A stretch of DNA of 64,000 bases from Flectonema sp. DT1601 (taxonomy: Eukaryota): positions 806,001 through 870,000 of the forward strand of contig OZ025803.1 of assembly GCA_964019425.1 (NCBI GenBank). Reading direction: 5' to 3'. Positions 17,658 to 38,340 of this stretch are shown piece after piece. Both the position numbers and the translations under genes were made by a program. Positions within the stretch are counted from its first letter, which is position 1. Each line of letters starts with the position of its first letter. Below the pieces are notes generated by a model that had not been told where the DNA came from, ran no database searches, and was given only the letters and a program-made list of their open reading frames with translations.

Positions 17658-19800
17658 TTTTATTTATTTATTTAGTCACATCCCCCCTGTCTTTCCACTT
17701 TATTTTTCTTCATTCTGAGCATTCTTGCCCTTCTTATTTTTTGATAAAGTAAACAAGTAAGAATAAGCGCAACTGTCCTGAGTCCGTTGGAGGACTTCCC
17801 CGGATAGGAATCTCAAGACACAGTTAATATAAAGCGAAGGATCAGTACAGGGACGGTGGCCAAAGACCACTGGGTTACCTACGAGCCATGAAGCTCTGCG
17901 GATGTCCTCAGAGAAATAATTAGGATTATCCTTATTTCTGATTCTCTCAGCATGTCCTTGGGGTATCGAGCCGCTCTCAGGCCTGCGGTAGTTCACCCGT
18001 TTGATCAGTGGTTTCGCCCTTGCTGAACCCTCCATAATCTTACCAAACAGCTTTCTGTTAGCTTCCCTCGCTATCCTTGACTTATGTGCGAAGAAGTCCA
18101 TAGTTGTTGACACCGGCTTGCTCTTAACATCTTTTGATTTTTTTTTCGCCAGTTCATCTGCCTTGTCATGCGGTTCAATCCCCACGTGAGCTGAAGGTGT
18201 ACGAATGAGTCTAATTTTCTTATCCCTTCTAGTATCGAGAGAGAGTTCAGCTTCCTCTGAGCCTCAATTCCACCACGCAGCTCATCCAGATTGGATTTAG
18301 AATCACTGAAGACTCTCGTGATTCCAGATCTGGGACCCAGGACAGAGGTTGCTTTTCCAAATTCCCTTATCAACAACTTCAGAGTTATCTGTTCAGCCTT
18401 GTAACTACTTTCCGTTGCAATAAGTCTCGAAGCCATGGCACGGCGAGATCTGCACCGCTGCTGCGCCTTAGCCTTGTCCACTTCAGCACACCGGTCTTCG
18501 AATGTCCATATCCACAAGATATCTCCAGGCTCGGAACATCTATCCATGGCTCGATGCTGTCAGGCATGACAATCCCTTGGATCTTCATATTGGCTTGCTT
18601 CTCAATCTGCAGTCTCATCGGGAGTATGTTCGCCTCCCACGGTAACGGAAGGGACCTTGTGTTGAAGCCGCAGCCGGTGACCTTCCTTGTTATCTACTTC
18701 TTACCGTACTTATCAGCAAGATAGCCTCCAATAGGTGACCCAACGAGACCAGCACATGCGACTGAAAACAACATTCCAATCTGTGATGTGGACGCACTCA
18801 AGACAGCTGCTGCGTGAAGAGGAACCAACACCATCTGTGCTGCGTATCCGAAGAATAGCGCCGTGTTCATAGCTGCGATAGCCAAAGTTGGAGCAATTCA
18901 ACTTTGATTTCAAAACGCTGAACATGATCAAGAACTTATACATCCTCTCAAGGATTCTGTATGGGCTTGAGAGCTATGGACCTTTCTTGACAGATGAACA
19001 GCTTAAACCTATTGACCTGAAGCAGAACAAGGCATCTTCCTAGGGAATCCCAGCCTCAATACATATTCCTAGGAGTCCACCGGCATCCCGCAGGTCTTCG
19101 AGACCGACAGTGCCATGTCATTGTCTTTGCACCAACGATCTCGCTAACCCAAGGACTAATTGCGCCTTCCGTAAGTTATTTTAAAATCCTTATCCAAGCT
19201 GTGTCGTCTGCGTAGAGTGCTGAAACACATCCAGTCTTCTCAAGTTTCTTAGCCAGGTCGTCGACATATATCAGATAAAGGAGAGGCCCAACAATCGACC
19301 CTTGTGTAACACCTTTCGTCACCGTTCTGTATGCGCTCAGATTGCCATTGACACTAACCTTTGCTTTCCTTCGCGTCAGAAAGTTAGCGACCCATCCGAT
19401 GAATGGTGAAGGAATCCCCATCGCTACCATTTTAGCGATCAGTTTAACACTTGCCACCTTTTCTCGCACCATGCAGCGCATTGACCAGCAGTGATATTTA
19501 CTCGCAAGCATTCCTGCCCCTTCTGAAACCTGCCTGAATGGAGGACAAGGCGTTATGCGACGTCAACAAGGTGATCGGTCTGTAGCGAAGAAGTGAATAG
19601 TTTTTCTTTGGGCTTACCCGGTCAGGGAAATCCTGGGAGTTTGGCTGGTAACATGCCAGCAGCTAGCTACTCTGATTCCAAGACCGTGCTCATTGAGTAC
19701 AAGCCCAAGGCCCCCTCAATCTCGTCCGCCTTATCCTGCGCGATACTAAGAGTAGTATCATCCTTTGGCCGCCAACTGAAGCCTTCACTGCCTGCTCACA
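17658..19800 (-). mobile_element. Element D: degenerate, internally deleted and rearranged relative of family-A non-LTR retrotransposon
   Basis: Same (TAAA)n tail and 3' UTR as family A. Fragments match family-A RNase H (FSDSKSNL, HVGIEPHDKAD), RT (GVTQGS, YADD), PGKPK..RPITL and probably ORF1 (PAKLP). Frameshifts and deletions throughout. Confidence 0.88.
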
Positions 19801-23100: not shown

Positions 23101-24063
23101 TCTTCTTCTCTTCCCTTTGATCCGAAGCCTTCTCCTAACGTACCTCTTCGCTACTCCAAGAACGATTCTGTTGAACGTTACTGCTCTTCTCCCAACGCTC
23201 GCAGAGTTGTTTACCTTTCCAAACCTGTAGTCTAGTTCATGTTCATATGAGTACCAATCAGCTGTATTGAAGTCCCAGACCGATCTCTTCGTCGCGTGGT
23301 TGCCCGAAGGCTCAAGGGGTGAGAGCGTATCGAAGGTAGCAGAGAGTGGTGTATGATCCGAACCGTGCTCAATTCCTTCACCTACCAGCTCAAAGTTAAG
23401 CAGTTGAATCTCCTCGTGGTGCAGGATCAGATCGGGCGAGGTCCCATGTCTCGGCAGTGTCGCTAGACCTGGCGGGTTCGCAATCAGGAGGTCCTCTTGC
23501 CCTGTCCAGTTGAGAAGGTCACAGCCTTTTACGTCGGTTTTCTTGGACCAGTACCTATGGTGTGCGTTGAAGTCACCAGCGAGAATGAACTTGCCAACAC
23601 GTTTAAGGGAGAATAGTTCAAAATTAATCCTCGAGCTCGGTGGGGAGTAGATGTTGAGAATACTTACGTCTTCGTTAATTCTGACACCCATCGACTCGAC
23701 GGTTCCTCTCATCGACGGTATGGAGATATCAAAGCAATCATGTTGAATTCCTCGTTTTATTAAAGTGATCAGGCCACCTCCCCTTCCTGGCCTATCCCTC
23801 CTGTAGCAAACGTAGTTCCAATGAAACAATGCCATCCTGCAAGAAGTCTCCTGAAGGCAAAGTACGTCGGGGTCAAGCTTACTCAGGATGTGTCCAATGA
23901 ACTCCATTTTGTTCGAGATGGTGCGACAATTCCAACTGATTACATTTAGTTTGCAAGAGGGACCATCCTTTCTCCTATTCGGCCCTGGGTTTCGTTCAAC
24001 GTCCCCTGCTATCAGCAAGAGACGTCTTCGAGTCTCAGCCCAGTTCCTTCCATCTACGTGCCG
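20176..24063 (-). CDS. ORF2 of family-A copy 1: 2A-like peptide, APE endonuclease, reverse transcriptase, RNase H, C-terminal Cys/His motif
   Basis: ISWN, LQET, NIYSPP, AGDFNAH, SDH; PGPDG, FRPITL, QAGF, PQGS, YADD, YLG; YVDGS, FSDS, PAHVG; CPFC...HLMFNC. The frame is open from the ORF1 stop at 24064-24066. Confidence 0.95.
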   Translation of the reverse strand, partial: RHVDGRNWAETRRRLLLIAGDVERNPGPNRRKDGPSCKLNVISWNCRTISNKMEFIGHILSKLDPDVLCLQETSCRMALFHWNYVCYRRDRPGRGGGLITLIKRGIQHDCFDISIPSMRGTVESMGVRINEDVSILNIYSPPSSRINFELFSLKRVGKFILAGDFNAHHRYWSKKTDVKGCDLLNWTGQEDLLIANPPGLATLPRHGTSPDLILHHEEIQLLNFELVGEGIEHGSDHTPLSATFDTLSPLEPSGNHATKRSVWDFNTADWYSYEHELDYRFGKVNNSASVGRRAVTFNRIVLGVAKRYVRRRLRIKGKRRRMWNASTPDTKRAKGKFIAERLAKGEGFAYAFKKIKDLETDEGREIHIPEFDENQLPAKFLEQFVKTPTKRKLGPPNTKSSDFAKIGGNLTMTELKRAIKKVRPGKAPGPDGIHGIMLKNLSVIGMDFLLALFNESWLTSKVPRIWKEGLIKPVYKPGKPKDKIASFRPITLTSVVGKVLERVIYDRLMYWLTQNNALSSIQAGFRRGRNTCEQISMLVNALHEASEKNKSSVLLSFDFTEAFDRINHEKLIKKMKNMSIPSPFIAWVVDFLKGRQARVSANGNLSSYRTVTRGVPQGSIIGPLLYLIYVDDLAKLLEKTGSVSALYADDTACVVSDKDVNLTNKKAQWILGLVDSWCKTNDMALSVSKTCGMPVRCPKDIYWRLGFPRTAKDNYYVVSRGDLAKMIRPNEFGRPILGSGETILKVDDTEVANTKDLLAIFPDGSSKLRVKLLTAVLMPMVDSVKYLGVHIDGDLSYGTQVGKMLDETRKGLALLGKLEQYDFDFKTLCMVKNLYILSRLSYGLESFGPFLSEGQIDLVDLNLKKIARRITGCSIYTRSLPLLLEANMLPMKLIIEKQARTALFRYRSLRWVRSTNRIAKGFWSSKLPQEDCNIALQGIVQPDSIEPWADVPNLEISCGYGHNKTGDADVDRNKFEEYCRDLVPCNSAIYVDGSHDPANYTAGAAAVQVSPTERTMSSRLVATESSYKAEQVTLKLLMREIGKADSILGPRSGITRIFSDSKSNLEELNGGIVAQRKLNSLLILESIRDLKTQVHLQFIPAHVGIEPHDKADKLAKEVSKDAESKPVSTTMDFFAHKSRVARESHRKLIGKMMEASEKAKPPMKRVMLRQYLEATGGLRTARYPKDMLRASEVRIAQFRTGSHPLLRDKGVQLKCPFCKRTDSSPRHLMFNCMNSALVRIRNGTIGSVMEEAKISKKEHSLLFMFATRNLHSLAGFIWHLEQWTATSCYQKLLSF

Positions 24064-25034
24064 TCATTTACCTTCCAAGAATCTCGTCATCAGCATCTCT
24101 AAACGATCCATCCTTCGTTCCATCGTATCCTGTTCAGCTGTCGACTTCTTCACAGTTTTCTTTGTCACAACCTGCTCTACAGGACCTACTTCCTTCAAGG
24201 CTCCTTTCCTCTCCTCAATCTTCACACCCGCTTCCCGCCAGAGTCTCTTCCCCTTCCCCTTACCATGAAAGGATAAGAATTCTGCTCGCAAGTAGCAACG
24301 ATTAGAGGCCTCCCCCTCTGTTGGATCACGTCTCTTCTCCGGCGGAGTAAGGCCTTTTTCCGGTGTGCTCTCCGCAGTTGACGTTGGCTGAGTTTTCTCC
24401 TTCACATCCACCTCTCTGGCAGCTTGGCGCTTCTTACGATCTTGTCTTTGAACTACCTCAACCGTACATGCCCTACCGTCGATTAATACCGTGTCGTCAT
24501 CCGGCACTTCAGCACGCACCCTCATCCATCTGTATCCAGTCCTTACTCCATCCACGGTTGCTCTCACATGCCACCCATCCTTCGCCAGCAGCGCTACCGC
24601 TTCACGGGGAAGTACATCTAACGGAATTCCCGAGATTTCTAATTCAGGGAGCTTTGCAGGGATTCCCAGTTTTTCCCTGGTTACATCTTCCAGCTCCGGT
24701 GAAACTCTGATACCAAAACCTTTAGGGTTTTCGACTAATCCCAACGATTCCAAGGAATCAGAGTGTTCAACTGCCTCCTTCAAAGAGCACTCGTCCTGAA
24801 GCCAAATAACTGTATCCTTCGGAGCCTCCCCTTCGTCTTGGATCCACAAGAACCTCCCATCTTTGCCGGAAGTTCTTAGCAGTTCCACCGCCCCGGATTT
24901 CCTCAGTCGGATGACAGCCGACACCGTACTCTTCGTTACCCTGAAGTTGTACGCTTCCATGAAGCCGGGTGTGTCCTTCATTTCTTTTGTGATGAGGTGC
25001 TCAGGCTTGCTCGCTAACTCAAGCCACTTATCAT
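24064..25034 (-). pseudogene. C-terminal portion of ORF1, family-A copy 1 (truncated and interrupted)
   Basis: Near-identical to the last ~320 aa of ORF1 at 35048-38212. The track N-terminus MVHSKKKKN comes from the poly-A tail of element B. Confidence 0.9.
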
Positions 25035-28000
25035 TTTTTTTTTTTTTTGAGTGCACCACGACCCGTGAGTCTGTGATGCTGTTTGCGCTGTTAGGCGCGG
25101 CTGTTCTTTTTCTTTCTTTCTTTCTTACTTTCTTTGTTTTGGGGGTTGGGGGTGGGAATCCCGTAGGCTTCGTATCTCCTTTCTTTGTTTTGATAACTTA
25201 AAACTAATACTACATAATTAATTGTCCACTTGGACGACTTCAGATGTGTTGCAATGATGCCTTCAATGTTGATATTCGAAATGTCGATGTTTTAATAATA
25301 CTACCGTCCTAATAGTTGTGCCAGTCTGTCTAAGGTTGTGACAAAACCAGTCATCTGCTGTTGATTCGCAGGTAAGTAGCAGTCCTCCAGTTGGCATGCT
25401 TCCTCTCCCTTGTCATTCATCATGTGACTGATGTATTTTTCTCTCAAGGTTTCTATACACCAATGTTCGCATATAAATAATACATGATGTGCTGTCGCCT
25501 TTCCAAGTTTACAGAAAAAGCACAGCTCGTTCAGTCCTTTGATTATCAGAGATCTGCAATGTCCCACTCTAAAGCGTGACATCAGTACTTCCTCTGGTCG
25601 TGTTAGAGCTTCGATGTACGGAGGGTGTCTTACCTCTCCCGGTCCGATCCAGTTCTCCCGTTTTCTCCGCTTGTGAAACGTCATCAATGTTCCCATGTCA
25701 AGTTGAGTGGGCAGTTGTTTAATAATAACATCTTCGTGAGGTGGATCTTCCTTCAGGCCTGCAGCGAATTTCGCCAGTTGGTCCGCTACTTCGTTGTACC
25801 GCACGTTTCTGTGTGCCGGTACATACTGCATGTTGACTTGGATTCCCTTCTTCTCCAGTTTCATTGCCAACTTCCAGATCTTTTTGTTCATTGGGGACCT
25901 TTGTTTATATGGCCCTTGTTCCAATGCCTGCATGACTGACATCGAATCAGTCAACAGGTGCGTCGTTGTTGTTAGAGATTCATGTTCATCCTCCGCCACC
26001 TGAACTAAATTTTCCAACGCCAGTTTCACTGCAATCTGCTCGGTCCTATAAGAGGAACCCGCTACTGGTATTTTATATCCAAGTAGACGCATCTTGCTTT
26101 CGTTAACCATGACCACAGCGGCAGCCGCGTCTGTCATGTACGTGTTGGGTTTGGGTCTTATCGACCCGTCAGTGTAGACTTTCATCTCGTGGGCTGGTAG
26201 TTCAGTTTCTCGCTGTTCAGCCTCTTCCTTGTTACTTGAATATGTGAATCTCATCGCACTAGTACTTTCCCATGGAGGGAGAGTGTAGTGTTCTGGGTTC
26301 ACTTCCAGGTTGGTAATGCTCCGGTAATTGTCAAGGCCAGGGATACCAGAGACATAGTCTATCCAGACATTCCATCCCCATTTTGATTTTTGAAATAATT
26401 CTGAACTCCCTGTTCTCGTCAGCTTGCGAGTCGGTAGGAACGGACTTAATTTGAAACGTTCATAGGTTCTACACATCTTATACTGGTTGTGTTCCTTCAG
26501 TCTTGGCGTGTCGGCTTCTTTGTAAAGTCTCTGTAGTTTGGTGCTCCGCAGACATCCAGTTACCAGCCTCACTGCCCTGTTTACCAGTAATTCCAGTTGT
26601 TCGAAGCACTCTTTTGGTAGCATCCAAGCAAAGCTTTCAACACCATAAAGCACCCTTGCTAACACCACCGTCACCAGTATACTGATGAGTGTCCTCTTTC
26701 TGCAGCCTATCCTAGTGAGTCTAACCAACAAGCCTAGACCCTTGGAAGCAGCTGTCATCATCTTTTGAATTTGCGACTTAAAGGTTAACTTCTCGTCATA
26801 ATGTACACCCAGGTACCGCACGGTATTCGTCTTGTGAACTTTTCGTCCAACCGCATAGGCAAATCCGTGTAATCCGGGCCCCACTCTTTCCAGCATCTTA
26901 TCTATTTCTGCCTTGTTGTGGACTTTCTTCAGTTGTGAGAAGCTGGCGCTCATCTTCATTGTTTTCAGTACCGCCGGTTTGTTCGGTAGCTTGACTTTGA
27001 TCTTATGTTTTGGAACGACATACAGGTGAGTGATGGCGAATTCTTCTTTTGAAACTACAGTTGTTGAGTTATCATCCTTCACAAGGTTACTCATTTGTTC
27101 TGCCGTGGCCACCACATATTTAAATGTGTGTTCTTCAGAGTATACTACTACTGGGGACTTGTCATGAGTTCCACTTGGCCTCACGTGAATGTATTCCGTC
27201 TTGCCAGGGTTCTTATTGATTTTGATGTGTGAGTCAAGTGCCCACCTTTCAAATATTTTGACTGCGTTGTTAACCTTGTTTTCTAAACAGCTGACAGTGC
27301 CCGCGGTTATTACTATTCCAACATCATCTGCAAAGACAGTCGGTTCGTACATCTCTAGTTTATCTATCAAATCGTTGATGAAGATAGAGAATAACTGGGG
27401 TCCCAGCACGCTTCCTTGTGGTACTCCTACTCGAATGTTCCGGAATGCTCCCTTCACTCCATTCACCCTTGTTGAAATCTTCCTACTAGTCAAGTAGTTT
27501 TGAACCCACCGTAGATATTTCGTTGGTAGTCCTATTTTGGACATCTTATTTAGAAGAGTTACCGGTTGAACTGCATCGAAGGCTTTTTGTAGGTCGAAGG
27601 TGATTAATATCGCTTCTTCCCCCATTGCCTTGGCACTTTTGAGTTTGTCTGTAACTATACAGAGATTTTCAATGGAATCCCGTCCTCGTTTGTAGGCTGC
27701 TTGCCTCGGATTTATTCTGTCTTTCAACAGGTGGTGCATCCGTTCTACGACCATTCTTTCAAAGAGTTTCGAGACGGTCGAGGTTAGTGCTATCGGTCTG
27801 TACGATAAGACTTGTTTCTTGTCTTTATCAGGTTTCAGTATGGGTATTACCATTCCACTTTTCCAGCACCTGGGTACTGCTGATCGTTGCCATGAGAGGT
27901 TGAATAGTCTTAGTAGTTGCTCGAGGAAAGCTTTTGGAAGTTGTTTTAACATCGAGTTCCAGATGTGGTCAGGTCCAGGTGCCTTCTTCTCTTTTGTTTT

Positions 28001-29039
28001 TGAAATTTGTCGTTCCAGTTCAGGCATTCCAAATTCCACCGAGTTATCATCAGGTATTCCTTGTAAGGTTGGTTCACCGTCTTCGAATTTGAATTGGTCT
28101 GCGTATGTTTTGGTGAAGACATCTGCCATCTCCCGCGGGTCGGTTAATTCCTTCTCACCGTCGACAATCTTAGTAATTGAATGGTCCATCATTCTACCTT
28201 CCAGTTGTTTAACTTTTCTAAAGGCCCATCGGTAGTCCATTCCAGTCATGTCGCACTCAATGATCTTCTGTTTGATCATGTTGATACCTCTTTCAATTGC
28301 TTCTGAGTCTGTCTTATCAGGGTCAGTCTCTGCCATTAAATCTTCCAATTCTGAATCCCTCACAGCGAAGGTACTACTTGACTTCTTGTTGTAGCCTGGG
28401 ATGGCCCTTCTCGCTGCTCTCAGAATCTCGTTGTTGATCCTATTAGCAAGTTTCTGCACATTCTTAATTCTTTCTAATTTGGGCGCTGCCCTTTCCAACA
28501 ATATTTTATAATAATTCCAATCGGCACAATGCCACTTCCATTTCCATGTCCCAGAACTCTCTTTTGAATATTCATCTGTTTTGATATCTTCGATTGTCAG
28601 TTTGAGTGGCAGGTGATCGCTGCCCCATCCCTTCATGAGTTCGATTTGTGCATCCAAAGAAATATCTAATGCAATTACATCCGGAGAGGCTGAGCTCTGT
28701 GGTCTTGTGTGTTGTTGAGGTTTGTTTAGAATTTGAATTGCTGCTTCTAGTGACCAATCGTAGAAGCTGTTACCAGTAATGTTCGTATTTCCATTTGACC
28801 AAGTTGAATGGTGTCCATTAATGTCACCCGCAATCAATGTGCCGGGCTCTGATATAAACTTCCAGGTTGTTGCCTTGATTTCAGGCGGGTGGTAAACATT
28901 GTGAATTGTCAATGGCGGATTAGATTGAAGTACTACTGTTAATATCTCAGTTTGGTCATGTGAGATGTCGGGGTGTTTTAATATTATCTTATTTAAATCA
29001 TTTCTGACCAGAGTGACGAGTCCTCGATGACCTGACTTG
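25035..29039 (-). mobile_element. Element B: second family of Ingi-like non-LTR retrotransposon, 5'-truncated in APE, nested in family-A copy 1
   Basis: Poly-A tail (T run to 25048). ATCAT is duplicated at 25030-25034 and 29040-29044. Family-A sequence resumes exactly after the insertion. Confidence 0.93.
25301..29039 (-). CDS. APE (partial)-RT-RNase H polyprotein of element B
   Basis: NVYHPP, AGDINGH, SDH, PGPD, YRPIAL, PQGS, FADD, YLG, VYTDGS, LTDS, PAH...NEVAD, CFFC...HVLFIC. The frame is intact; the track ATG lies in the TSD. Confidence 0.92.
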
Positions 29040-29137
29040 ATCATCCTTCCACCTTCTTTTAGGAGCGGTCACTATTGCCTTCACCGATTTATATAAAACC
29101 TTTTTTTTTATTTATTTAATAAAAAAACTTTTTTGTC

Positions 29138-30848
29138 TTTTTTTTTTTTTTTTTTTTTTTTTTCATTACTACCTGAAACTGTCTCTTCTTTTTCTACAGC
29201 AACGGGCTGACGCAAAACACGCGTACATTTAATGTGGGTCCAGGGCAATTGCCCACCTCATAAGAGGCCCATTGTTCTTCCTTTCTTTCTCCCCAAGTTA
29301 GTAAGGCAGGTGTAAAATAAAATAACAAAAAGAAATTTATTTATGGGGAGGAATTGTCAATCGTAAGATATGACTTATACTTATCACATATGTAAATATG
29401 TGGAGAAGGTAAGAACAATAACGAAAAACTTCATGTCGAAGTTGCAGCTCGTCGCAATTTGAATTGACATAGCTGTAGCTGCTATGTGCTTTTTGGGGAT
29501 GGCCTGAAAGGTGCGGACTTTCATCTAAGATCTCAAAAACTCTCGATCTGTGTCCAATCTATATCGGCCCATCAATCAATCAACAATCAGACCATCCCCA
29601 TGGTGTAGGTGCTACTTTGGTTAATTTGGAAGCTTGAGAAATCAAGTCAGTTGTGAGTTTTGAATCACAGTATTGAAAAGTGTGGGTTGAAGGATAACGT
29701 TTTCTTCATTTTCTTTCTTTGTTTCCTGACTCAAATTTTCTTTTTTCTTTTCTTTTTCTGGAAAAACATATCTTCTTGCAGATGACATAAAAAGAAAAAC
29801 ATTCTCTAGTCCTTGTACAGTGGAAAGACAATCCTTTAACTCTTCTTGTGTTAGAGAGTCTTTCTGGAGATACATCCTCCTCTCTTTTCTGTACTTTGAG
29901 CATTTTGCTAACAGGTGCTCTACAGAGTCTTTTTCTCTGCACCTAGGACATTTCCCTTGTGTTTGTTTACAGTCGCCAATTCTGAGTTGTGAAATCAGAA
30001 TTTCTTCCGCTCTTTCAGTTTCAGATGGGAAAGGACGGGGGTCAAATTTTTCTTTTATTCTGTGTTTTAGTTTAGCTACATGGGTGCTGTAGTCTATGGG
30101 AACTTTTTTTTGTTTTAAAAGGGTTTCTTCATCTTTTTTTAATGAAATGTTTTGGGCTAGTTTGTCTGCTTCTTCGTTTCCGACAATACCACAGTGAGAA
30201 AAGACATGCTGGAAAATAAACTTTGTTTTGAATTTATTGTTGAAAAATTCAATAAACTGCCAGATGCGGCTTCCTAGTCTCGTTTTCTGTTTTGTTCCCC
30301 CTTTTTCCAGTTCCATCAAGGCACTGGAGGAGTCTGACACAAATAAAACTGACGCATTTTCCGGCGGTTTAAATTCCTTAAAAAGTAAAACAAAAGCGTT
30401 TTTGATCGCCATCATTTCAGCCCTAAAAGAGGTGCAGATTATTCCTGCTTCACTTTTGTTCGTGAGAAATTCATTTCCTTCGCTGTCTATGATGTACACA
30501 CCCGCAGCACCGCGTTCTTCAACAACGGCACCATCGGTATATACCTCTAAGACTGGTTCATAATCTTTCCTTATTTCATTAAGAACAGCTTCACAGGCTT
30601 TTTTATTTTTCTTTTTGTCTTTTTTTTTTCTAACATGCATTTCTGGTTTAAAAACATTGAAATCATTTGAAAAACTCCATGGAGGATGAACGTAAATGGG
30701 ATATTTCTCAAAACTGAGTGATAGAAGGTTGTGTTCTTTCAGAACATTCATTCCTAAACGAGTAAAAGAATCAATGGGTGTTGAGGATATTCTTTCAGGT
30801 GGAATAAAGACATTTAATAAAGGGGACGTGATTCGCGCCATTTTGGCG
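29138..30848 (-). mobile_element. Element C: third family, heavily 5'-truncated non-LTR retrotransposon (RNase H and Cys/His end only; ORF 29642-30841)
   Basis: Long poly-A tail (T run 29138-29163) and ~480-nt 3' UTR. PPW, VYTDGA, SFRAE, VSDS, HVFSHCGIVGNEEAD, CPRC...HLLAKC. Much more AT-rich than families A and B. Confidence 0.9.
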
Positions 30849-31159
30849 AACCATCATTTATTTATTTATTTATTTAGTCACATCCCCCCTGTCTTTCTAC
30901 TTTGTTTTTATTCTTTCTGAGCATACTCGCTCTTCTTATTTTTTAACTAATTAAATAAGCAACAACGAGTGCAACTGTTGTGAGTCCGTTGGAGGACTTC
31001 CCCGGATAGGAAGCTCACGACACTGTAAGTACAAAGCGAATGATCAATACGGAGACGGTGGCCAAAGACCACTGGGTTACCTGCGAGCTATGAAGCTCTA
31101 CGGATGTCCTCAGAGAGTTATTAGGAGATGAATTAGGAGTGATGTATGAGTATGATATA

Positions 31160-34100
31160 CTAAAAAGATAGTAACTTCTGATAACAGCTTGTTGCCGTCC
31201 ATTGTTCTAAATGCCATATGAAGCCAGCGAGGGAATGTAAGTTCCTCGTAGCGAACATAAATAGCAGGCTGTGTTCCTTCTTTGAAATCTTCGCTTCTTC
31301 CATGACAGATCCAATTGTTCCATTTCTGATGCGTACCAGAGCAGAGTTCATGCAGTTAAACATCAAGTGTCTAGGTGATGAGTCCGTCCGTCTACAAAAA
31401 GGGCACTTCAGTTGTACGCCTTTGTCTCTCAGCAAGGGGTGTGAACCCGTTCTGAATTGTGCAATTCTTACTTCCGAAGCTCTCAGCATGTCTTTCGGAT
31501 ATCTAGCAGTTCTCAATCCTCCGGTCGCCTCCAGATACTGTCTGAGCATCACCCGTTTCATTGGAGGCTTTGCCTTCTCGGAGGCTTCCATCATCTTTCC
31601 TATCAACTTCCTGTGAGACTCCCTCGCTACCCTTGATTTGTGGGCGAAGAAATCCATGGTCGTTGAGACCGGTTTTCTTTCGGCATCCTTCGAGACTTCT
31701 TTGGCCAGCTTATCAGCCTTATCGTGTGGTTCAATCCCCACATGGGCCGGGATAAACTGGAGATGCACCTGTGTCTTCAGATCCCTAATGCTTTCCAGTA
31801 TTAACAGAGAGTTCAACTTCCTCTGGGCAACAATCCCTCCATTGAGTTCCTCCAGGTTGGATTTCGAGTCACTGAAGATTCTGGTAATACCTGACCTGGG
31901 ACCCAAGATCGAGTCAGCTTTGCCAATTTCTCTCATCAGCAGTTTGAGTGTTACTTGTTCAGCCTTGTAGCTGCTTTCAGTAGCTACAAGTCTTGACGAC
32001 ATCGTTCTCTCAGTTGGTGAGACCTGTACTGCTGCCGCACCCGCAGTGTAGTTAACAGGATCATGTGAGCCGTCCACATATATAGCCGAGTTGCAAGGGA
32101 CTAGGTCCCTGCAGTATTCCTCAAATTTGTTCCTGTCCACATCTGCATCACCGGTCTTGTTATGACCATACCCACAGGATATCTCTAGATTTGGTACATC
32201 CGCCCAGGGTTCGATGCTGTCAGGTTGAACTATTCCTTGGAGGGCGATGTTACAATCTTCCTGCGGCAACTTAGAACTCCAGAATCCTTTCGCTATTCGG
32301 TTCGTCGAACGTACCCACTTCAGCGATCGATACCTAAACAGAGCAGTTCTGGCCTGTTTTTCTATTATCAACTTCATCGGGAGCATGTTCGCCTCCAAGA
32401 GCAGTGGGAGAGACCTGGTGTAGATGCTGCAACCCGTTATCCTTCTCGCAATCTTCTTCAGATTCAAGTCCACAAGATCAATCTGACCCTCAGATAGGAA
32501 AGGACCGAAGCTCTCCAGCCCATATGACAGCCTTGAAAGTATGTACAGGTTCTTGACCATGCACAGCGTCTTAAAATCAAAATCATACTGTTCTAGTTTC
32601 CCCAGGAGTGCAAGACCCTTCCTGGTCTCATCCAGCATCTTTCCGACCTGTGTTCCATAAGATAAATCACCATCAATGTGCACCCCCAGGTATTTAACGC
32701 TGTCTACCATCGGCATCAGTACTGCGGTTAACAACTTTACTCTCAGCTTACTTGATCCATCAGGGAAAATTGCAAGCAGGTCCTTCGTATTAGCAACTTC
32801 GGTATCATCCACCTTGAGAATGGTTTCTCCACTCCCCAGAATTGGCCTTCCAAACTCGTTCGGTCTGATCATCTTAGCCAGATCTCCCCTGCTTACAACG
32901 TAATAATTATCCTTTGCAGTCCTGGGGAAGCCCAGTCTCCAGTAGATATCCTTTGGGCAGCGCACAGGCATACCACATGTCTTAGAGACGGACAGTGCCA
33001 TATCATTGGTTTTGCACCAGCTATCCACAAGTCCAAGGATCCATTGCGCTTTCTTATTGGTTAAATTAACGTCCTTATCAGAGACTACACAAGCGGTGTC
33101 ATCTGCATAAAGAGCCGAAACTGAGCCAGTCTTCTCCAACAACTTTGCCAGGTCATCAACATAAATCAGGTATAGCAGCGGACCGATAATCGATCCTTGG
33201 GGAACCCCCCTCGTTACCGTTCTGTAGGAGCTAAGGTTGCCATTCGCACTCACCCTTGCCTGCCTGCCCTTCAGGAAGTCAACTACCCATGCAATGAACG
33301 GGGAGGGAATACGCATGTTCTTCATCTTCTTGATCAGTTTCTCATGATTAATTCTATCAAATGCTTCCGTGAAGTCGAACGACAGCAGAACAGAGCTCTT
33401 GTTCTTTTCACTGGCCTCATGAAGAGCGTTGACTAACATTGAAATCTGCTCACACGTATTCCTTCCTCTTCTAAAACCCGCCTGGATAGACGACAGGGCA
33501 TTGTTCTGGGTAAGCCAATACATCAACCTATCATAAATCACTCTTTCAAGTACTTTACCCACCACCGAGGTCAACGTGATCGGTCTGAAACTTGCGATCT
33601 TATCTTTTGGCTTACCTGGTTTGTAAACTGGCTTGATAAGACCCTCCTTCCAGATCCTCGGTACCTTTGACGTTAGCCACGATTCATTGAATAACGCCAG
33701 GAGGAAATCCATTCCTATCACCGATAAGTTCTTCAACATTATCCCATGGATTCCATCTGGACCTGGTGCTTTCCCGGGCCTTACCTTCTTGATGGCTCGC
33801 TTCAGTTCAGTCATTGTTAGATTCCCTCCGATTTTGGCGAAGTCGCTGCTCTTCGTATTCGGAGGTCCTAGTTTACGTTTTGTCGGGGTCTTAACAAATT
33901 GTTCCAAGAACTTCGCAGGTAGTTGGTTCTCGTCAAACTCCGGAATGTGAATTTCACGTCCTTCATCCGTCTCAAGGTCCTTTATCTTTTTGAACGCATA
34001 TGCAAAGCCTTCACCTTTTGCTAGCCGTTCAGCGATAAATTTTCCCTTCGCACGCTTGGTATCTGGGGTGGAAGCGTTCCACATTCTTCTTCTCTTCCCT

Positions 34101-35047
34101 TTGATCCGAAGCCTTCTTCTAACGTACCTCTTCGCTACTCCAAGAACGATTCTGTTGAACGTTACTGCTCTTCTCCCAACGCTCGCAGAGTTGTTTACCT
34201 TTCCAAACCTGTAGTCTAGTTCATGTTCATATGAGTACCAATCAGCTGTATTGAAGTCCCAGACCGATCTCTTCGTCGCGTGGTTGCCCGAAGGCTCAAG
34301 GGGTGAGAGCGTATCGAAGGTAGCAGAGAGTGGTGTATGATCCGAACCGTGCTCAATTCCTTCACCTACCAGCTCAAAGTTAAGCAGTTGAATCTCCTCG
34401 TGGTGCAGGATCAGATCGGGCGAGGTCCCATGTCTCGGCAGTGTCGCTAGACCTGGCGGGTTCGCAATCAGGAGGTCCTCTTGCCCTGTCCAGTTGAGAA
34501 GGTCACAGCCTTTTACGTCGGTTTTCTTGGACCAGTACCTATGGTGTGCGTTGAAGTCACCAGCGAGAATGAACTTGCCAACACGTTTCAGGGAGAATAG
34601 TTCAAAATTAATCCTCGAGCTCGGTGGGGAGTAGATGTTGAGAATACTTACGTCTTCGTTAATTCTGACACCCATCGACTCGACGGTTCCTCTCATCGAC
34701 GGTATGGAGATATCAAAGCAATCATGTTGAATTCCTCGTTTTATTAAAGTGATCAGGCCACCTCCCCTTCCTGGCCTATCCCTCCTGTAGCAAACGTAGT
34801 TCCAATGAAACAATGCCATCCTGCAAGAAGTCTCCTGAAGGCAAAGTACGTCGGGGTCAAGCTTACTCAGGATGTGTCCAATGAACTCCATTTTGTTCGA
34901 GATGGTGCGACAATTCCAACTGATTACATTTAGTTTGCAAGAGGGACCATCCTTTCTCCTATTTGGCCCTGGGTTTCGTTCAACGTCCCCTGCTATCAGC
35001 AAGAGACGTCTTCGAGTCTCAGCCCAGTTCCTTCCATCTACGTGCCG
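31160..35047 (-). CDS. ORF2 of family-A copy 2: 2A-like peptide-APE-RT-RNase H
   Basis: Same motifs as copy 1, with about five amino-acid differences. No in-frame ATG before the APE ISWN motif; the track start is a TTG. Confidence 0.95.
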   Translation of the reverse strand, partial: RHVDGRNWAETRRRLLLIAGDVERNPGPNRRKDGPSCKLNVISWNCRTISNKMEFIGHILSKLDPDVLCLQETSCRMALFHWNYVCYRRDRPGRGGGLITLIKRGIQHDCFDISIPSMRGTVESMGVRINEDVSILNIYSPPSSRINFELFSLKRVGKFILAGDFNAHHRYWSKKTDVKGCDLLNWTGQEDLLIANPPGLATLPRHGTSPDLILHHEEIQLLNFELVGEGIEHGSDHTPLSATFDTLSPLEPSGNHATKRSVWDFNTADWYSYEHELDYRFGKVNNSASVGRRAVTFNRIVLGVAKRYVRRRLRIKGKRRRMWNASTPDTKRAKGKFIAERLAKGEGFAYAFKKIKDLETDEGREIHIPEFDENQLPAKFLEQFVKTPTKRKLGPPNTKSSDFAKIGGNLTMTELKRAIKKVRPGKAPGPDGIHGIMLKNLSVIGMDFLLALFNESWLTSKVPRIWKEGLIKPVYKPGKPKDKIASFRPITLTSVVGKVLERVIYDRLMYWLTQNNALSSIQAGFRRGRNTCEQISMLVNALHEASEKNKSSVLLSFDFTEAFDRINHEKLIKKMKNMRIPSPFIAWVVDFLKGRQARVSANGNLSSYRTVTRGVPQGSIIGPLLYLIYVDDLAKLLEKTGSVSALYADDTACVVSDKDVNLTNKKAQWILGLVDSWCKTNDMALSVSKTCGMPVRCPKDIYWRLGFPRTAKDNYYVVSRGDLAKMIRPNEFGRPILGSGETILKVDDTEVANTKDLLAIFPDGSSKLRVKLLTAVLMPMVDSVKYLGVHIDGDLSYGTQVGKMLDETRKGLALLGKLEQYDFDFKTLCMVKNLYILSRLSYGLESFGPFLSEGQIDLVDLNLKKIARRITGCSIYTRSLPLLLEANMLPMKLIIEKQARTALFRYRSLKWVRSTNRIAKGFWSSKLPQEDCNIALQGIVQPDSIEPWADVPNLEISCGYGHNKTGDADVDRNKFEEYCRDLVPCNSAIYVDGSHDPVNYTAGAAAVQVSPTERTMSSRLVATESSYKAEQVTLKLLMREIGKADSILGPRSGITRIFSDSKSNLEELNGGIVAQRKLNSLLILESIRDLKTQVHLQFIPAHVGIEPHDKADKLAKEVSKDAERKPVSTTMDFFAHKSRVARESHRKLIGKMMEASEKAKPPMKRVMLRQYLEATGGLRTARYPKDMLRASEVRIAQFRTGSHPLLRDKGVQLKCPFCRRTDSSPRHLMFNCMNSALVRIRNGTIGSVMEEAKISKKEHSLLFMFATRNLHSLAGFIWHLEQWTATSCYQKLLSF
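34964..35047 (-). other. 2A-like StopGo (ribosome skipping) peptide RHVDGRNWAETRRRLLLIAGDVERNPG/P (also 23980-24063)
   Basis: Matches the D(V/I)ExNPGP consensus with the typical upstream RRLLL-x-x-G segment. Confidence 0.92.
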
Positions 35048-38000
35048 TCATTTACCTTCCAAGAATCTCGTCATCAGCATCTCTAAACGATCCATCCTTC
35101 GTTCCATCGTATCCTGTTCAGCTGTCGACTTCTTCACAGTTTTCTTTGTCACAACCTGCTCTACAGGACCTACTTCCTTCAAGGCTCCTTTCCTCTCCTC
35201 AATCTTCACACCCGCTTCCCGCCAGAGTCTCTTCCCCTTCCCCTTACCATGAAAGGATAAGAATTCTGCTCGCAAGTAGCAACGATTAGAGGCCTCCCCC
35301 TCTGTTGGATCACGTCTCTTCTCCGGCGGAGTAAGGCCTTTTTCCGGTGTGCTCTCCGCAGTTGACGTTGGCTGAGTTTTCTCCTTCACATCCACCTCTC
35401 TGGCAGCTTGGCGCTTCTTACGATTTTGTCTTTGAACTACCTCAACCGTACATGCCCTACCGTCGATTAATACCGTGTCGTCATCCGGCACTTCAGCACG
35501 CACCCTCATCCATCTGTATCCAGTCCTTACTCCATCCACGGTTGCTCTCACATGCCACCCATCCTTCGCCAGCAGCGCTACCGCTTCACGGGGAAGTACA
35601 TCTAACGGAATTCCCGAGATTTCTAATTCAGGGAGCTTTGCAGGGATCCCCAGTTTTTCCCTGGTTACATCTTCCAGCTCCGGTGAAACTCTGATACCAA
35701 AACCTTTAGGGTTTTCGACTAATCCCAACGATTCCAAGGAATCAGAGTGTTCAACTGCCTCCTTCAAAGAGCACTCGTCCTGAAGCCAAATAACTGTATC
35801 CTTCGGAGCCTCCCCTTCGTCTTGGATCCACAAGAACCTCCCATCTTTGCCGGAAGTTCTTAGCAGTTCCACCGCCCCGGATTTCCTCAGTCGGATGACA
35901 GCCGACACCGTACTCTTCGTTACCCCGAAGTTGTACGCTTCCATGAAGCCGGGTGTGTCCTTCATTTCTTTTGTGATGAGGTGCTCAGGCTTACTCGCTA
36001 ACTCAAGCCACTTATCATCCTTCCACCTTCTTTTAGGAGCGGTCACTATTGCCTTCACCGATTTAATACCCCGCTTACCCTTTGGTAGAGCAGCCTCACC
36101 CAGGTCATGAATGAAGATGCGATGTACCTTGTTTCCATCCTTGCTCGATAATAGCACGTGTTCCCTTCTTCCTTGTCCATTCACTTGGTCCAGCGTTACC
36201 ACGCTGCACGTTTTCCATGCAGGAACCTCCGGCTTCATCCCCAGAAGATCTCTTGCCTCCGAAGGCGTCGCAAGGGCTACTCCTTGATTCCCTTTCGATA
36301 CCTCCTCAAACTTCGTGACCGGAATGTTCCAATCAGCTTCCCTCAGGCTCCAGGAGTTCAACACTTCCCTCTCCTTCTTGTTGGTTTTCTCCCAGAGACG
36401 TCTGGCTTTTTCAACAGCTTTCATCGACTGCGTCGCTTTCTTTTCCAGTGATTCCCACTCGGATGTGCAGTTCCTCTGTACAGCTGATCTAACCTTTGAC
36501 TCATCAGTGGTGAGGCCGTAGGAGCGAGAGTAGGTCAGACCGTTCACTAAGTTGGCAATTCCCAGTGGTGGTTGGCTCGGGGCTACTACGACCTCATTCA
36601 CTTCTTCGCTTCTCTGCGCTCTCGATGAGGCCAACTCCTGTCTCAGTTCTTTTAGCTGAGTCTGGAGTTCCATGAGCAACTTCCTCAGCTCACCCTTCTC
36701 TTCTCTCTCTTTCTGGAGCTCCAGTCGGAGTTGTTCAATTCCCTGTTGTTGCGGAAGTACCGGCGGGTACGGTTGCCTTTGATGCATCGGTGCATAAGGC
36801 TGGTGCTGCATGTAGTAGACCGGAGGTTGGCTTACTGCATGCGTTTGCTGACGGAGGCTGCTTTGTTGGAGTTGGAGCTTCTGTTGCTGTTGTCGCAGTT
36901 TTCCTTCTTGAAGTTCCAGATCTAGCTTTGACTTCTGGTCTTCTTGTTGCTGTTGTTCGAACTCCTTTCCAAGCTCCCGTTGAAGTTGGAGCAGTTCCTT
37001 CCTCCCTTGTTCCTTCTCCTTTTCTTGTTGTTGTTGGAGTTGATGGCTACGCAGCTTCTGTTGTTCGAACTCCATGTCTAGCTTGTTCCTGAGACACTGG
37101 AGTTCCTTCCTACCCTTCTCCATCTCGTCCTCCTGCTGGCGTTGTAGTTGGAGTCGTTGATGCTCAAGGTCATCTTCCTGCTTTTTGATTTCTTCCCGTC
37201 TCTGTTGTTGTTGCTGCTGGTCCAGTTTGCCCTTTTCCAACTCCACATTCAGTTGATGTTGAAGCAGCTGCTGTTTTTCCTCCAGGCTAACCTGTTGCAG
37301 TTGCAGATTCTGTTGAATCCTGGACTGTTCTTGTTGTTGTTGGCGTTGGTCTTCTTCGAGTTGGCATCTTCTTCTTCGGAGAGATTCATCCTCGACAGCC
37401 TTCTCCTTGCTGTGCTGCTGTTCGAGCTGCTGTTGTTGGATCAGTATTTGTTCCTGCTTCTGTTGTAGGTCTGCTTTATATTGTAGCAGTTCTTGTTGTT
37501 GTTGGTTTAACAACTCTTGGCTATGTTGTTGGTTTTGATGTTGTTGTTGGACTTGATGCTCAAGTTGTTGTTGCTGTTGTATATGCTTATCCTGCTGTTG
37601 TTGGACTTGTTGATCAAGTTGCTGTTGCTGCTGCTGTTGGATTTCCTGCTGCTTTTTGACTTGATGGCTAAGTTGCTGTTCTTGCTGTTGTTGCTTCAGA
37701 CAGAGTTCATCTTCGTACTGAGTAAGAGCCTTCTGTTGTTGATGCAGATGTTCCTGGTTTTGTTGCTGTTGATGGTCCAGTTGTTTCTGGTTGACAAGTT
37801 GTTGCTGTTGATGGTTAGTCAGTACTTCCTCAAGCTGTTGTTGCTTTTGGAATAATTCTTCCTGTTTCTTCTGGAAGTTAACTTCTAGCTCACTCTGTTG
37901 TTTGCAGAGGAGCTCTTGTTGTTGCAGCAGTTCGTTCTTCTCTTCTTCCTGCTCTGCCTGTTTTTTCTTGAGGACCTTCTCGTCCTTCTTCCTGTCTTCG

Positions 38001-38212
38001 TCCCGATCCAGCCTTCTTAGGCCATCCCGTGCGAGTCTCTCCCTCAACTCGTCTCGTTCCTTCGTGTCTACGCTCGTCTTCCTGTCTTTCTTACCGTTCC
38101 CGTTCTCTGTGTGTGCTTTCCGGTTCCTTTCCTTCCGTGAGAGTATTTCACCTCCCATCTGGTTGCAAAATTTAGTCGGTCTCTGCCGTCCGAGACCGCC
38201 GCGTGGAGGCAT
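35048..38212 (-). CDS. ORF1 of family-A element: basic N-terminus, long Gln/Glu-rich coiled coil, globular C-terminal region
   Basis: Uninterrupted 1054-aa ORF between the 5' ribozyme fold and ORF2. No CCHC knuckle seen. Confidence 0.85.
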   Translation of the reverse strand: MPPRGGLGRQRPTKFCNQMGGEILSRKERNRKAHTENGNGKKDRKTSVDTKERDELRERLARDGLRRLDRDEDRKKDEKVLKKKQAEQEEEKNELLQQQELLCKQQSELEVNFQKKQEELFQKQQQLEEVLTNHQQQQLVNQKQLDHQQQQNQEHLHQQQKALTQYEDELCLKQQQQEQQLSHQVKKQQEIQQQQQQQLDQQVQQQQDKHIQQQQQLEHQVQQQHQNQQHSQELLNQQQQELLQYKADLQQKQEQILIQQQQLEQQHSKEKAVEDESLRRRRCQLEEDQRQQQQEQSRIQQNLQLQQVSLEEKQQLLQHQLNVELEKGKLDQQQQQQRREEIKKQEDDLEHQRLQLQRQQEDEMEKGRKELQCLRNKLDMEFEQQKLRSHQLQQQQEKEKEQGRKELLQLQRELGKEFEQQQQEDQKSKLDLELQEGKLRQQQQKLQLQQSSLRQQTHAVSQPPVYYMQHQPYAPMHQRQPYPPVLPQQQGIEQLRLELQKEREEKGELRKLLMELQTQLKELRQELASSRAQRSEEVNEVVVAPSQPPLGIANLVNGLTYSRSYGLTTDESKVRSAVQRNCTSEWESLEKKATQSMKAVEKARRLWEKTNKKEREVLNSWSLREADWNIPVTKFEEVSKGNQGVALATPSEARDLLGMKPEVPAWKTCSVVTLDQVNGQGRREHVLLSSKDGNKVHRIFIHDLGEAALPKGKRGIKSVKAIVTAPKRRWKDDKWLELASKPEHLITKEMKDTPGFMEAYNFGVTKSTVSAVIRLRKSGAVELLRTSGKDGRFLWIQDEGEAPKDTVIWLQDECSLKEAVEHSDSLESLGLVENPKGFGIRVSPELEDVTREKLGIPAKLPELEISGIPLDVLPREAVALLAKDGWHVRATVDGVRTGYRWMRVRAEVPDDDTVLIDGRACTVEVVQRQNRKKRQAAREVDVKEKTQPTSTAESTPEKGLTPPEKRRDPTEGEASNRCYLRAEFLSFHGKGKGKRLWREAGVKIEERKGALKEVGPVEQVVTKKTVKKSTAEQDTMERRMDRLEMLMTRFLEGK

Positions 38213-38225
38213 TTTGTGTGGTCCC
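38165..38225 (-). ncRNA. HDV-like self-cleaving ribozyme at the 5' end of the retroelement
   Basis: GGGACC-ACA-CAAAAU-GCC-UCCACGC-GGC-GGUCUC-GG-A-CGG-CAGAGA-CCG-A-CUAA-AUUUUG. P1 GGGACC/GGUCUC, P2 CAAAAU/AUUUUG, P3 GCC/GGC, L3 UCCACGC, P1.1 CC/GG, P4 CGG/CCG, J4/2 C-UAA carrying the catalytic C. Confidence 0.88.
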
Positions 38226-38268
38226 TAAAATAAAAAACCATCAATCTTTTTTTTTTTTTATCTTCAGA

Positions 38269-38340
38269 TCCGCTGTAGTATAGTGGTTAGAACACCTGGC
38301 CCTCACCCAGGAAACCGGGGTTCAATTCCCCGCAGCGGAA
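38269..38340 (+). tRNA. tRNA-Glu (anticodon CTC)
   Basis: Acceptor stem TCCGCTG/CAGCGGA, D loop AGTGGTTA, anticodon stem CCTGG/CCAGG with loop CC-CTC-AC, T arm CGGGG-TTCAATT-CCCCG. Confidence 0.93.

What the first reader, a model, noticed from the sequence alone, without database searches (positions are those of the whole stretch)
34969..35027. Extended hairpin 3' of the leaky stop, overlapping the 2A codons
Seen on the minus strand: GACGUCUCUUGCU-GAU-AGCAGGGGACGUU forms 13 contiguous pairs (34982-35010, including G-U pairs). It can be closed further out by CUGGG (35027-35023) pairing with CCCAG (34973-34969), starting about 20 nt after the UGA. Established: 3' stem-loops stimulate UGA-C readthrough in alphaviruses. 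Inference: the same nucleotides encode the 2A peptide and a readthrough stimulator.
Basis: partly seen in the sequence, partly recalled or inferred. Interest (0 to 1): 0.7.

Follow-up and report, generated by a model that had tools for sequence, protein, structure and literature searches.

The report
Retrotransposon stop-readthrough hairpin inside 2A
In a jumping gene (a LINE retrotransposon) of what is likely a marine protist, a conserved stop codon separates the two genes with no start codon after it, and the next stretch both encodes a ribosome-skipping (2A) motif and is predicted to fold into a hairpin that likely helps a few ribosomes read through the stop, an untested control scheme familiar from RNA viruses.

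Summary
The hairpin is real: 13 contiguous pairs (35010-34982, 3 G-U) and the 5-pair outer helix are predicted with high probability, beat synonymous recoding (11 of 2000 for the 90 nt after the stop; weaker over 120 nt), and lie in the top-ranked of 232 windows of the element. It sits in a non-LTR retrotransposon: ORF1, in-frame AAA-UGA-CGG, 27 codons ending in a 2A motif, then APE-RT-RNase H, with no in-frame AUG before the endonuclease. ORF1 ends at the same place in four other families. A frameshifted relative let me infer a sister family's junction: 24 of 25 codons keep the amino acid while most third positions differ, so the AUG-less leader is very likely translated; 17 of 18 stem pairs survive (p about 0.04-0.07, one-sided changes only). 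Best reading: low-level readthrough then StopGo, aided by the hairpin (0.38); readthrough with an incidental hairpin (0.27); AUG-independent reinitiation (0.23). Nothing functional was tested.

The parts
34982..35010 (-). Inner hairpin, 13 contiguous pairs, GAU loop; encodes R-R-L-L-L-I-A-G-D-V of the 2A peptide; starts 37 nt after the stop
   Evidence: 12 of 13 pairs kept in the inferred sister junction
35023..35027 (-). 5' arm of the outer helix (CUGGG), 20 nt after the stop
   Evidence: 5 of 5 pairs compatible in the sister, but the helix had probability 0.00-0.16 in the sister folds shown
34969..34973 (-). 3' arm of the outer helix (CCCAG), within the N-P-G codons
34976..35015 (-). Middle 3-pair helix (35015-35013 with 34978-34976); not kept in the sister (0-1 of 3 pairs)
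35045..35053 (-). ORF1 stop and context, AAA-UGA-CGG (UGA at 35050-35048), in frame with ORF2
   Evidence: same in copy B; contig of run X1 spans it with no other letters
34964..35047 (-). AUG-less leader of 27 codons ending in the 2A motif G-D-V-E-R-N-P-G, then P; predicted skip between 34967 and 34966
   Evidence: motif as defined in PMC3708506; 24 of 25 codons (+4 to +28) compatible with the same residue in the sister
35051..38212 (-). ORF1, 1054 aa, Gln-rich coiled-coil-like N-half and a conserved C-half; no Pfam family
31160..35047 (-). ORF2 frame, 1295 codons: 2A, APE (aa 42-239), RT (480-790), weak RNase H (988-1118, E 0.0015, under cut-off), C-terminal Cys/His motif; first in-frame AUG at 34891, inside the APE
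35019..35051 (-). AUG overlapping the stop (A-UG-A) in the -1 frame; opens only 10 codons, closed by UGA at 35021-35019
34900..35039 (-). Candidate basal helix, 35039-35034 with 34905-34900 (6 pairs, 8-nt spacer, 140-nt span); window-dependent, a lead only
23985..24066 (-). Identical stop, leader and hairpin in the 5'-truncated copy B (99.6% identical over 5163 nt)

Best explanation
The hairpin lies inside the 2A-coding leader that follows the in-frame UGA of a LINE retrotransposon, and it likely forms part of a signal that would let a small share of ribosomes read through that UGA, after which the 2A motif is predicted to release the endonuclease-reverse transcriptase as a separate protein. 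Shown: the element's layout, the in-frame stop in an AAA-UGA-CGG context, the lack of an in-frame AUG, the conserved stop position, and the predicted fold. Inferred: most ribosomes stop at UGA and give abundant ORF1p; a few insert an amino acid, translate 27 codons, skip the Gly-Pro bond and make ORF2p starting at Pro, leaving a minor ORF1p with a 28-residue tail. This would give a high ORF1p:ORF2p ratio without a fusion protein. Because the helices start 20 and 37 nt after the stop, the hairpin probably does not act as the classical roadblock at the mRNA entry channel on its own; more likely it is the stable core of a larger fold whose base pairs nearer the stop, or it slows ribosomes that have just read through. 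My split: entry by readthrough about 0.65; hairpin under selection about 0.6; hairpin raises readthrough about 0.38.
For: Stop context matches type II sites and the xxA-stop-CGx part of the tobravirus-group motif. ORF1 homologues at 32-43% identity (P0209, P0210, P0211, P0212) all end within a few residues of the same C-terminus; 12 of 16 own-family ORF1 proteins seen end exactly at the stop and none runs past it, and 8 of 15 ORF2 proteins start at the internal Met with none starting further up (only 15 of 23 and 15 of 42 cluster members were listed; two of the 12 are probably the window's own copies). Copies A and B differ by 14 synonymous and 7 nonsynonymous changes, as expected of an element under purifying selection. 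P0213, the only one of 268 stored proteins with an off-frame 2A core, reads the sister junction in the +1 frame: same residue possible at 24 of 25 codons (best of 269 shifted registers: 12), no AUG possible before codon +39, and 28 of 41 scorable third positions changed. In that sister 12 of 13 inner and 5 of 5 outer pairs remain possible; random synonymous codons do this with p 0.006-0.009, and evolution from this sequence at the rates seen outside the stems with p 0.044-0.068; the inner helix is in the minimum-energy fold of 30 of 48 compatible reconstructions. The hairpin window ranks first of 232 and is absent from 117 other 2A sequences.
Against: Spacer 20 and 37 nt against 7-9 nt in the known class; the +3 codon ends in A, not the G of the xxA-stop-CGx-xxx-xxG motif. 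The 8-nt-spaced basal helix has mean probability 0.94 in a 150-nt window but 0.02, 0.01, 0.21 and 0.64 in 180, 210, 240 and 300 nt, 130 of 400 recodings give a comparable helix at 0.5 or more, and it has a G:G mismatch in the sister. All stem changes in the sister are one-sided, mostly Watson-Crick to G-U, one pair is broken, the fold is weaker (-20 to -26 against -32.5 kcal/mol), 18 of 48 reconstructions do not form the helix, and the evolving null forms it in 187 of 1000 draws. The sister rests on one frameshifted protein whose stop context cannot be recovered. Related families start ORF2 with a Met 21-34 codons before the skip site and one appears to use an AUG overlapping the stop, so initiation near the junction is common in this group. 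Significance fades over 120 nt. No RNA or ribosome data.
Confidence: 0.38

Rival explanations
1. Readthrough then StopGo happens, but it is set by the AAA-UGA-CGG context alone; the hairpin is incidental or serves another step (RNA packaging, reverse transcription, pacing of the ribosome on the 2A codons).
For: Spacer too long for the known class; z -2.8 is the expected extreme of 232 windows; no compensatory double change and borderline p in the sister; some viral downstream structures have no shown effect (PSIV, chikungunya). Context alone gave 0.8-2% readthrough in cells for VEEV and Sindbis constructs, which may be enough for a LINE.
Against: The top-ranked window of the element lies at the stop; 0 of 117 other 2A windows pair in this register; 17 of 18 pairs survive near-saturated third positions.
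Confidence: 0.27
2. Ribosomes terminate at UGA and reinitiate without an AUG at or just after the stop, as proposed for mammalian LINE-1 ORF2; the hairpin is the downstream coupling structure, like the one SART1 needs, and 2A trims off the short leader.
For: SART1 needs RNA structure downstream of its stop-start site and L1 ORF2 uses unconventional reinitiation (review passages). Stems about 14 nt 3' of a start favour weak starts. Sister families with Met have leaders of the same length as this one, and the P0209 family seems to use an AUG overlapping the stop with ORF2 in the -1 frame (assuming one indel).
Against: No AUG and no efficient near-cognate start in frame before the conserved residues begin at codon +4 (codons; sister). 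Reinitiation does not need ORF1 and ORF2 in one frame or a leaky context, yet both hold here. No HDV-like ribozyme or IRES family matched.
Confidence: 0.23
3. A cis-spliced intron removes the stop: a good donor (AG|GTAAAT at 35055) has in-frame AG acceptors 18, 63, 66 and 87 nt away, and the host has short introns.
For: One search lists these intervals; a probable host intron of about 67 nt with an A-rich CAG acceptor lies at 9137-9071.
Against: The three longer introns would delete 2A codons that are conserved as protein; all four acceptor AGs are absent in the inferred sister; retrotransposed spliced copies would lack the stop, yet none of 16 ORF1 proteins runs past it and no joint was seen in the contigs laid; a search for long fused proteins found none (weak).
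Confidence: 0.04
4. Ribosomes reinitiate at the overlapping AUG in the -1 frame and shift +1 at GGC-UGA (35024-35019), with the 13-pair stem 8 nt downstream as an antizyme-like stimulator.
For: The AUG, the 10-codon frame and the 8-nt distance from that second UGA to the inner stem are in the sequence; GGC-UGA is also possible in the sister.
Against: Residues upstream of the shift site are conserved in the ORF2 frame, including AGG to CGT for Arg, and the residue-conserving sister reconstruction has stops in the -1 frame at two places upstream.
Confidence: 0.03
5. The UGA is a nonsense mutation in a dead or trans-mobilised family, or is read as a sense codon (reassigned code, selenocysteine).
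For: Only two near-identical copies could be compared as DNA.
Against: Stop position shared by four families at 32-43% identity; synonymous excess between copies; six host ORFs use UGG 55 times and UGA only once, as a terminal codon; no SECIS match at E up to 1; the one tRNA in the window is Glu.
Confidence: 0.03

Closest known systems
Type II UGA readthrough sites with extended 3' stem-loop (VEEV, Sindbis, tobra-, furo-, pomo-, coltivirus; PMC3159437, PMC3542737)
   Same: UGA-CGG context, A before the stop, polymerase downstream in frame, predicted stem-loop in coding sequence.
   Different: Helices start 20 and 37 nt after the stop, not 7-9; +3 codon lacks the G; host is a retrotransposon; the structure overlaps a 2A peptide; no reporter test.
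2A-bearing APE-type non-LTR retrotransposons (L1Tc, Ingi, some CR1, L2, Rex1; PMC3708506, PMC3894237)
   Same: GD(V/I)ExNPGP motif directly upstream of APE; APE-RT-RNase H order.
   Different: Those papers say Ingi-clade elements appear to lack ORF1 and most 2A elements have one ORF; here a 1054-aa ORF1 precedes the 2A in frame behind a stop, with no AUG. The words readthrough and read-through do not occur in PMC3708506.
ORF1p-2A-ORF2p fusions in Cordylochernes (PMC13405545)
   Same: 2A placed between ORF1 and ORF2 domains.
   Different: Reported there as single proteins; here a conserved UGA intervenes.
gag-UGA-pol LTR retrotransposons (Tca2, Tj1, Tosmo, Tcry1; PMC2194720, PMC10085805)
   Same: In-frame UGA between structural and enzymatic ORFs, AA before and C after the stop.
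   Different: LTR elements with a protease, not 2A; in Tca2 the junction alone did not give readthrough in a yeast reporter.
SART1 UAAUG coupling and L1 ORF2 reinitiation (seen through review passages)
   Same: Bicistronic LINE RNA; structure downstream of the ORF1 stop.
   Different: SART1 has an AUG in the ORF2 frame; here the overlapping AUG is out of frame and closes after 10 codons.

Membership tests
Type II readthrough site with 3' structure | In-frame UGA followed by CGG or CUA | tested here: met
   AAA-UGA-CGG; definition
Type II readthrough site with 3' structure | Stable stem starting 7-9 nt after the stop | tested here: not met
   Robust helices start after 16 (2 pairs), 20 and 37 nt; the 8-nt-spaced helix is window-dependent and mismatched in the sister
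Type II readthrough site with 3' structure | Suppressed synonymous variation and compensatory changes in the stem | tested here: inconclusive
   One inferred sister: 17 of 18 pairs kept, p 0.044-0.068, no double change; copies A and B too alike
Type II readthrough site with 3' structure | Readthrough measured and reduced by stem disruption | not testable with these tools
   needs a reporter
2A / StopGo peptide | GD(V/I)ExNPGP motif with Leu-rich upstream tract | tested here: met
   motif from PMC3708506
2A / StopGo peptide | Conserved as protein in the reading frame of the downstream ORF | tested here: met
2A / StopGo peptide | Skipping activity | not testable with these tools
   upstream context decides activity
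APE-type non-LTR retrotransposon | APE and RT domains, multiple 5'-truncated copies, A-rich 3' end | tested here: met
Ingi clade | APE-RT-RNase H with 2A directly before APE | tested here: met
   (RNase H weak, under the curated cut-off)
Ingi clade | Single ORF without ORF1 | tested here: not met
   1054-aa ORF1 with homologues in related families
Ingi clade | 5' HDV-like ribozyme / Pr77 hallmark (trypanosomatid members) | tested here: not met
   no such Rfam match in the window at E up to 1
Ingi clade | RT groups with named Ingi / L1Tc sequences | not testable with these tools
   no named Ingi or L1Tc protein came back; the tree has none
SART1-type stop-start coupling | AUG overlapping the stop in the ORF2 frame | tested here: not met
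   overlapping AUG is in the -1 frame and closes after 10 codons
Selenocysteine recoding | SECIS element in the RNA | tested here: not met
   no SECIS match

The most novel reading that the evidence does not exclude
A clade of diplonemid LINEs makes its reverse transcriptase by two recoding events in series, UGA readthrough followed 27 codons later by StopGo, with one 60-nt stretch serving at once as 2A peptide code and as the RNA structure that drives the readthrough from an unusually long distance; related families in the same host use AUG overlap or Met-started leaders, so the switch between reinitiation and readthrough can be traced within one genome.
Probability: 0.35. Interest if true: 0.78.

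Novelty: new variant of a known kind. Interest (0 to 1): 0.57.

Why it matters
How LINE retrotransposons translate ORF2 from a bicistronic RNA is still open. This element offers a compact, testable answer different from SART1 coupling and L1 reinitiation: readthrough to set the ratio, StopGo to avoid a fusion. My searches for non-LTR elements with stop-codon readthrough and for diplonemid non-LTR elements listed no paper whose title or abstract start describes it, and the passages read from those hits do not; subscription journals, Repbase and supplements were not searched. If the hairpin proves to stimulate readthrough from 20-37 nt away, it would also widen the rules for such stimulators and be a case of one sequence carrying two recoding signals.

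Tried and rejected
No whole genome was held, so copies could not be aligned as DNA genome-wide. Close-relative DNA search in metagenome contigs found nothing; alignment searches gave 71, 1 and 21 loci at 22-52% best-segment identity, and none of these 93 held a 2A motif on the element strand. No RNA holder was listed among sequencing runs. Contigs laid were sparse (depth 2-3): one contig spans the stop without differences, one shows only the synonymous change at 34964 also seen in copy B, no joint removes the stop; these runs may be the window's own source and are not independent. A search for long fused proteins found none among 2192 candidates (weak). The word-based ORF1 search found only the own family; the full HMMER scan found the homologues. 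Rfam had no match at the hairpin. Earlier scan notes: nothing found by place, sequence or words. The basal 8-nt-spaced helix looked like the alphavirus architecture but failed the window and sister tests. A -1 slippery heptamer before the stems was looked for by eye and not seen, and ORF2 needs no frame change. The ORF1 fold was not determined (structure atlas gave no answer; Pfam silent). The 24-row tree did not finish; the fast tree used 16 of those rows, leaving out P0011, P0012, P0013, P0018, P0020, P0026, P0045 and P0084. The SART1 paper itself was not held and is cited through reviews.

Full report
What the locus is. The finding lies on the minus strand at the ORF1/ORF2 junction of a non-LTR retrotransposon (copy A, about 38226-30856). 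Translation gives a 1054-residue ORF1 from the AUG at 38212, an in-frame UGA at 35050-35048, and 1295 open codons with a 2A motif, APE, RT and a weak RNase H match. The first in-frame AUG after the stop is at 34891, past the start of the endonuclease. A second copy, 99.6% identical over 5163 nt, has the same junction; of 22 differences, 14 are synonymous, 7 nonsynonymous and 1 in the 3' UTR, and none falls in 35050-34965. The closest named relatives are from the diplonemid Flectonema neradi, so the host is likely a diplonemid; host ORFs use the standard code.

The observation. Every coordinate is right, and both helices are predicted with probability above 0.8 in all seven contexts folded. Dinucleotide shuffles: 0 of 200 as stable for 29, 59 and 90 nt, 7 of 200 for 120 nt, 12 of 200 for 131 nt. 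Synonymous recoding: 11 of 2000 for the 90 nt after the stop with the element's codon usage, 81 of 2000 with uniform usage, and 91 and 452 of 2000 for 120 nt. In a scan of the coding region the window 35032-34943 ranks first of 232 (z -2.81), with an overlapping window eighth; the z distribution is about standard normal, so the size of the extreme is unremarkable and only its position is informative. Among 117 non-redundant natural 2A windows (from 132 matches in 124 viral loci, reduced at 80% identity), none has 12 of the 13 pairs in register, 3 have a helix as long, and 6 fold as stably. So the hairpin is real, is not forced by the 2A peptide, and is moderately but not overwhelmingly unusual.

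The stop is a conserved feature. Twelve of the 16 own-family ORF1 proteins seen end exactly at this stop, the other four are fragments that end earlier, and none continues; 8 of 15 ORF2 proteins begin at the internal Met and none earlier (lists were partial). A full HMMER scan with the ORF1 C-half found homologues at 32-43% identity, one from Flectonema, that all end within a few residues of the same C-terminus. The three families with no Met before the endonuclease (own, P0132, P0177) form a well supported group in a fast tree, nested among families that have a Met 21-34 codons before the skip site. Even in one of those, three listed copies have the Met and six do not.

A window on a sister family. 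P0213, 77% identical to ORF1 homologue P0212, is frameshifted at its end, and its tail reads the junction in the +1 frame. It is the only one of 268 stored proteins with an off-frame 2A core. A +1 reading fixes the second and third bases of each codon. The same residue is possible at 24 of 25 codons from +4 to +28 (best of 269 shifted registers: 12), no AUG is possible before codon +39, and 28 of 41 scorable third positions differ. This is the signature of a translated, AUG-less leader. First bases were chosen for residue similarity, so the identity is an upper bound, and the stop context of the sister is lost in the frameshift. In all 48 compatible reconstructions 12 of 13 inner pairs and 5 of 5 outer pairs remain possible, and 0-1 of 3 middle pairs. 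Random synonymous codons reach this with p 0.006-0.009; evolving this sequence at the rates seen outside the stems gives p 0.044-0.068. All changes are one-sided, most weaken the stem, the inner helix is in the best fold of 30 of 48 reconstructions against 187 of 1000 for the evolving null, and the outer helix mostly does not form in the folds shown. This is suggestive, not proof.

Geometry. Firth et al. 2011 (PMC3159437, passages) describe stems 7-9 nt after the stop spanning about 100-140 nt, with 3- to 14-fold stimulation; the 2026 review (PMC13517186, passages and section 4.5) ties the spacer to the 11-12 nt held in the mRNA entry channel. Here the robust helices start after 20 and 37 nt. 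Folding from +7 to +10 revealed a 6-pair helix, 35039-35034 with 34905-34900, with an 8-nt spacer and 140-nt span, but its mean probability is 0.94, 0.02, 0.01, 0.21 and 0.64 for 150, 180, 210, 240 and 300 nt, 130 of 400 recodings give one at 0.5 or more (7 of 400 as strong), and the sister has a G:G mismatch in it. I keep it as a lead only.

Mechanism. Most likely ribosomes enter ORF2 by reading through the UGA (about 0.65): the frames are aligned, the context AAA-UGA-CGG is among the leakiest known, and no start codon exists. The 2A would then release ORF2p starting at Pro. Whether the hairpin raises readthrough is the weaker step (0.38 overall). AUG-independent reinitiation remains a serious rival (0.23), because SART1 needs a downstream structure and L1 reinitiates unconventionally, and because a frameshifted copy of the P0209 family (P0217) is compatible with UGA-Y at its stop, an overlapping AUG, and an APE motif in the -1 frame with no 2A (assumes a single indel). 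Splicing, AUG-plus-frameshift, nonsense mutation and recoded UGA are each contradicted by at least one test.

Comparison and novelty. 2A motifs before APE are known in L1Tc, Ingi and other clades, mostly in elements without ORF1 (PMC3708506, first part and passages; PMC3894237, first part). ORF1p-2A-ORF2p fusions were noted in a pseudoscorpion (PMC13405545, passages). In-frame UGA between gag and pol is known in LTR elements (PMC10085805, passages; PMC2194720, abstract). Other papers seen as passages only: PMC10161547, PMC5972666, PMC5006619, PMC5009743, PMC3542737, PMC10275272 and bioRxiv 10.64898/2026.09.24.754024. The searches turned up no description of a LINE with ORF1-UGA-2A-ORF2; supplements of the 2A surveys, which I did not read, could list such elements. 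The element works like an Ingi-type LINE in its ORF2 but fails the single-ORF feature, and the site resembles type II readthrough but fails the spacer feature, so I file it as a new variant of known kinds.

Verdict. Observation confirmed; interpretation partly supported; interest 0.57, carried mainly by the conserved stop-plus-2A cassette rather than by the hairpin alone.

Noticed in passing
window 38269-38340 (+) and 38212-38268: A tRNA-Glu(CTC) gene lies head to head with copy A, 56 nt from the ORF1 AUG. The 32-residue leader of another copy (P0206) matches this flank only in the last 14 nt and an A-run, and beyond that its reverse complement fits the 5' part of a tRNA at nearly the same distance (15 of 24 constrained positions, the only one of 32 placements at 60% or more). 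This hints at targeting about 45 bp upstream of tRNA genes, like Dictyostelium TRE5 (PMC5006619 passages).
   Followed up: partly
window 17638-38226: A stack of LINEs, all on the minus strand, behind the tRNA gene: full-length copy A, a 5'-truncated element of another family (30853-29642), copy B truncated at 29091, and a decayed relative (17638-19421, 70-85% identical). This order would fit repeated insertion next to the tRNA.
   Followed up: partly
window 25035-29040 (-): A third LINE family (APE-RT-RNase H, poly(A) tail) is nested inside copy B's ORF1, with a short TGAT duplication at its ends.
   Followed up: partly
window 38226-38245 (-): A T-rich tract ending in AG sits 14 nt before the ORF1 AUG and looks like a spliced-leader acceptor.
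   Followed up: no
ORF1 C-terminal region, about window 35330-35200 (-): A motif of about 45 residues near the ORF1 end (RRDP...FHG...LW) also occurs as tandem repeats in many unrelated-looking proteins (P0219-P0251) and has no Pfam family; possibly a host-derived domain.
   Followed up: no
P0209, P0260, P0261, P0266, P0211: Several ORF1 homologues are called as fusions with host proteins (papain-like protease, a ubiquitin-like start, LRR), suggesting insertions into genes or splicing of host exons onto ORF1.
   Followed up: no
P0292 and P0286 family (window 29642-30853): This family also has a 2A-like motif before APE with a Met only two residues before it in one copy and none in others, so AUG-less entry may be general in this host.
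   Followed up: no
window 2224-3155 (+) and 2583-2614: A weak partial match to eukaryotic LSU rRNA (95 bits) and the window's most stable short hairpin (13 pairs, -23 kcal/mol on the minus strand).
   Followed up: no
window 53299-56412 (-): An adenylate/guanylate cyclase-like gene with an in-frame TAA at 55518-55516 inside what reads like a short intron.
   Followed up: no
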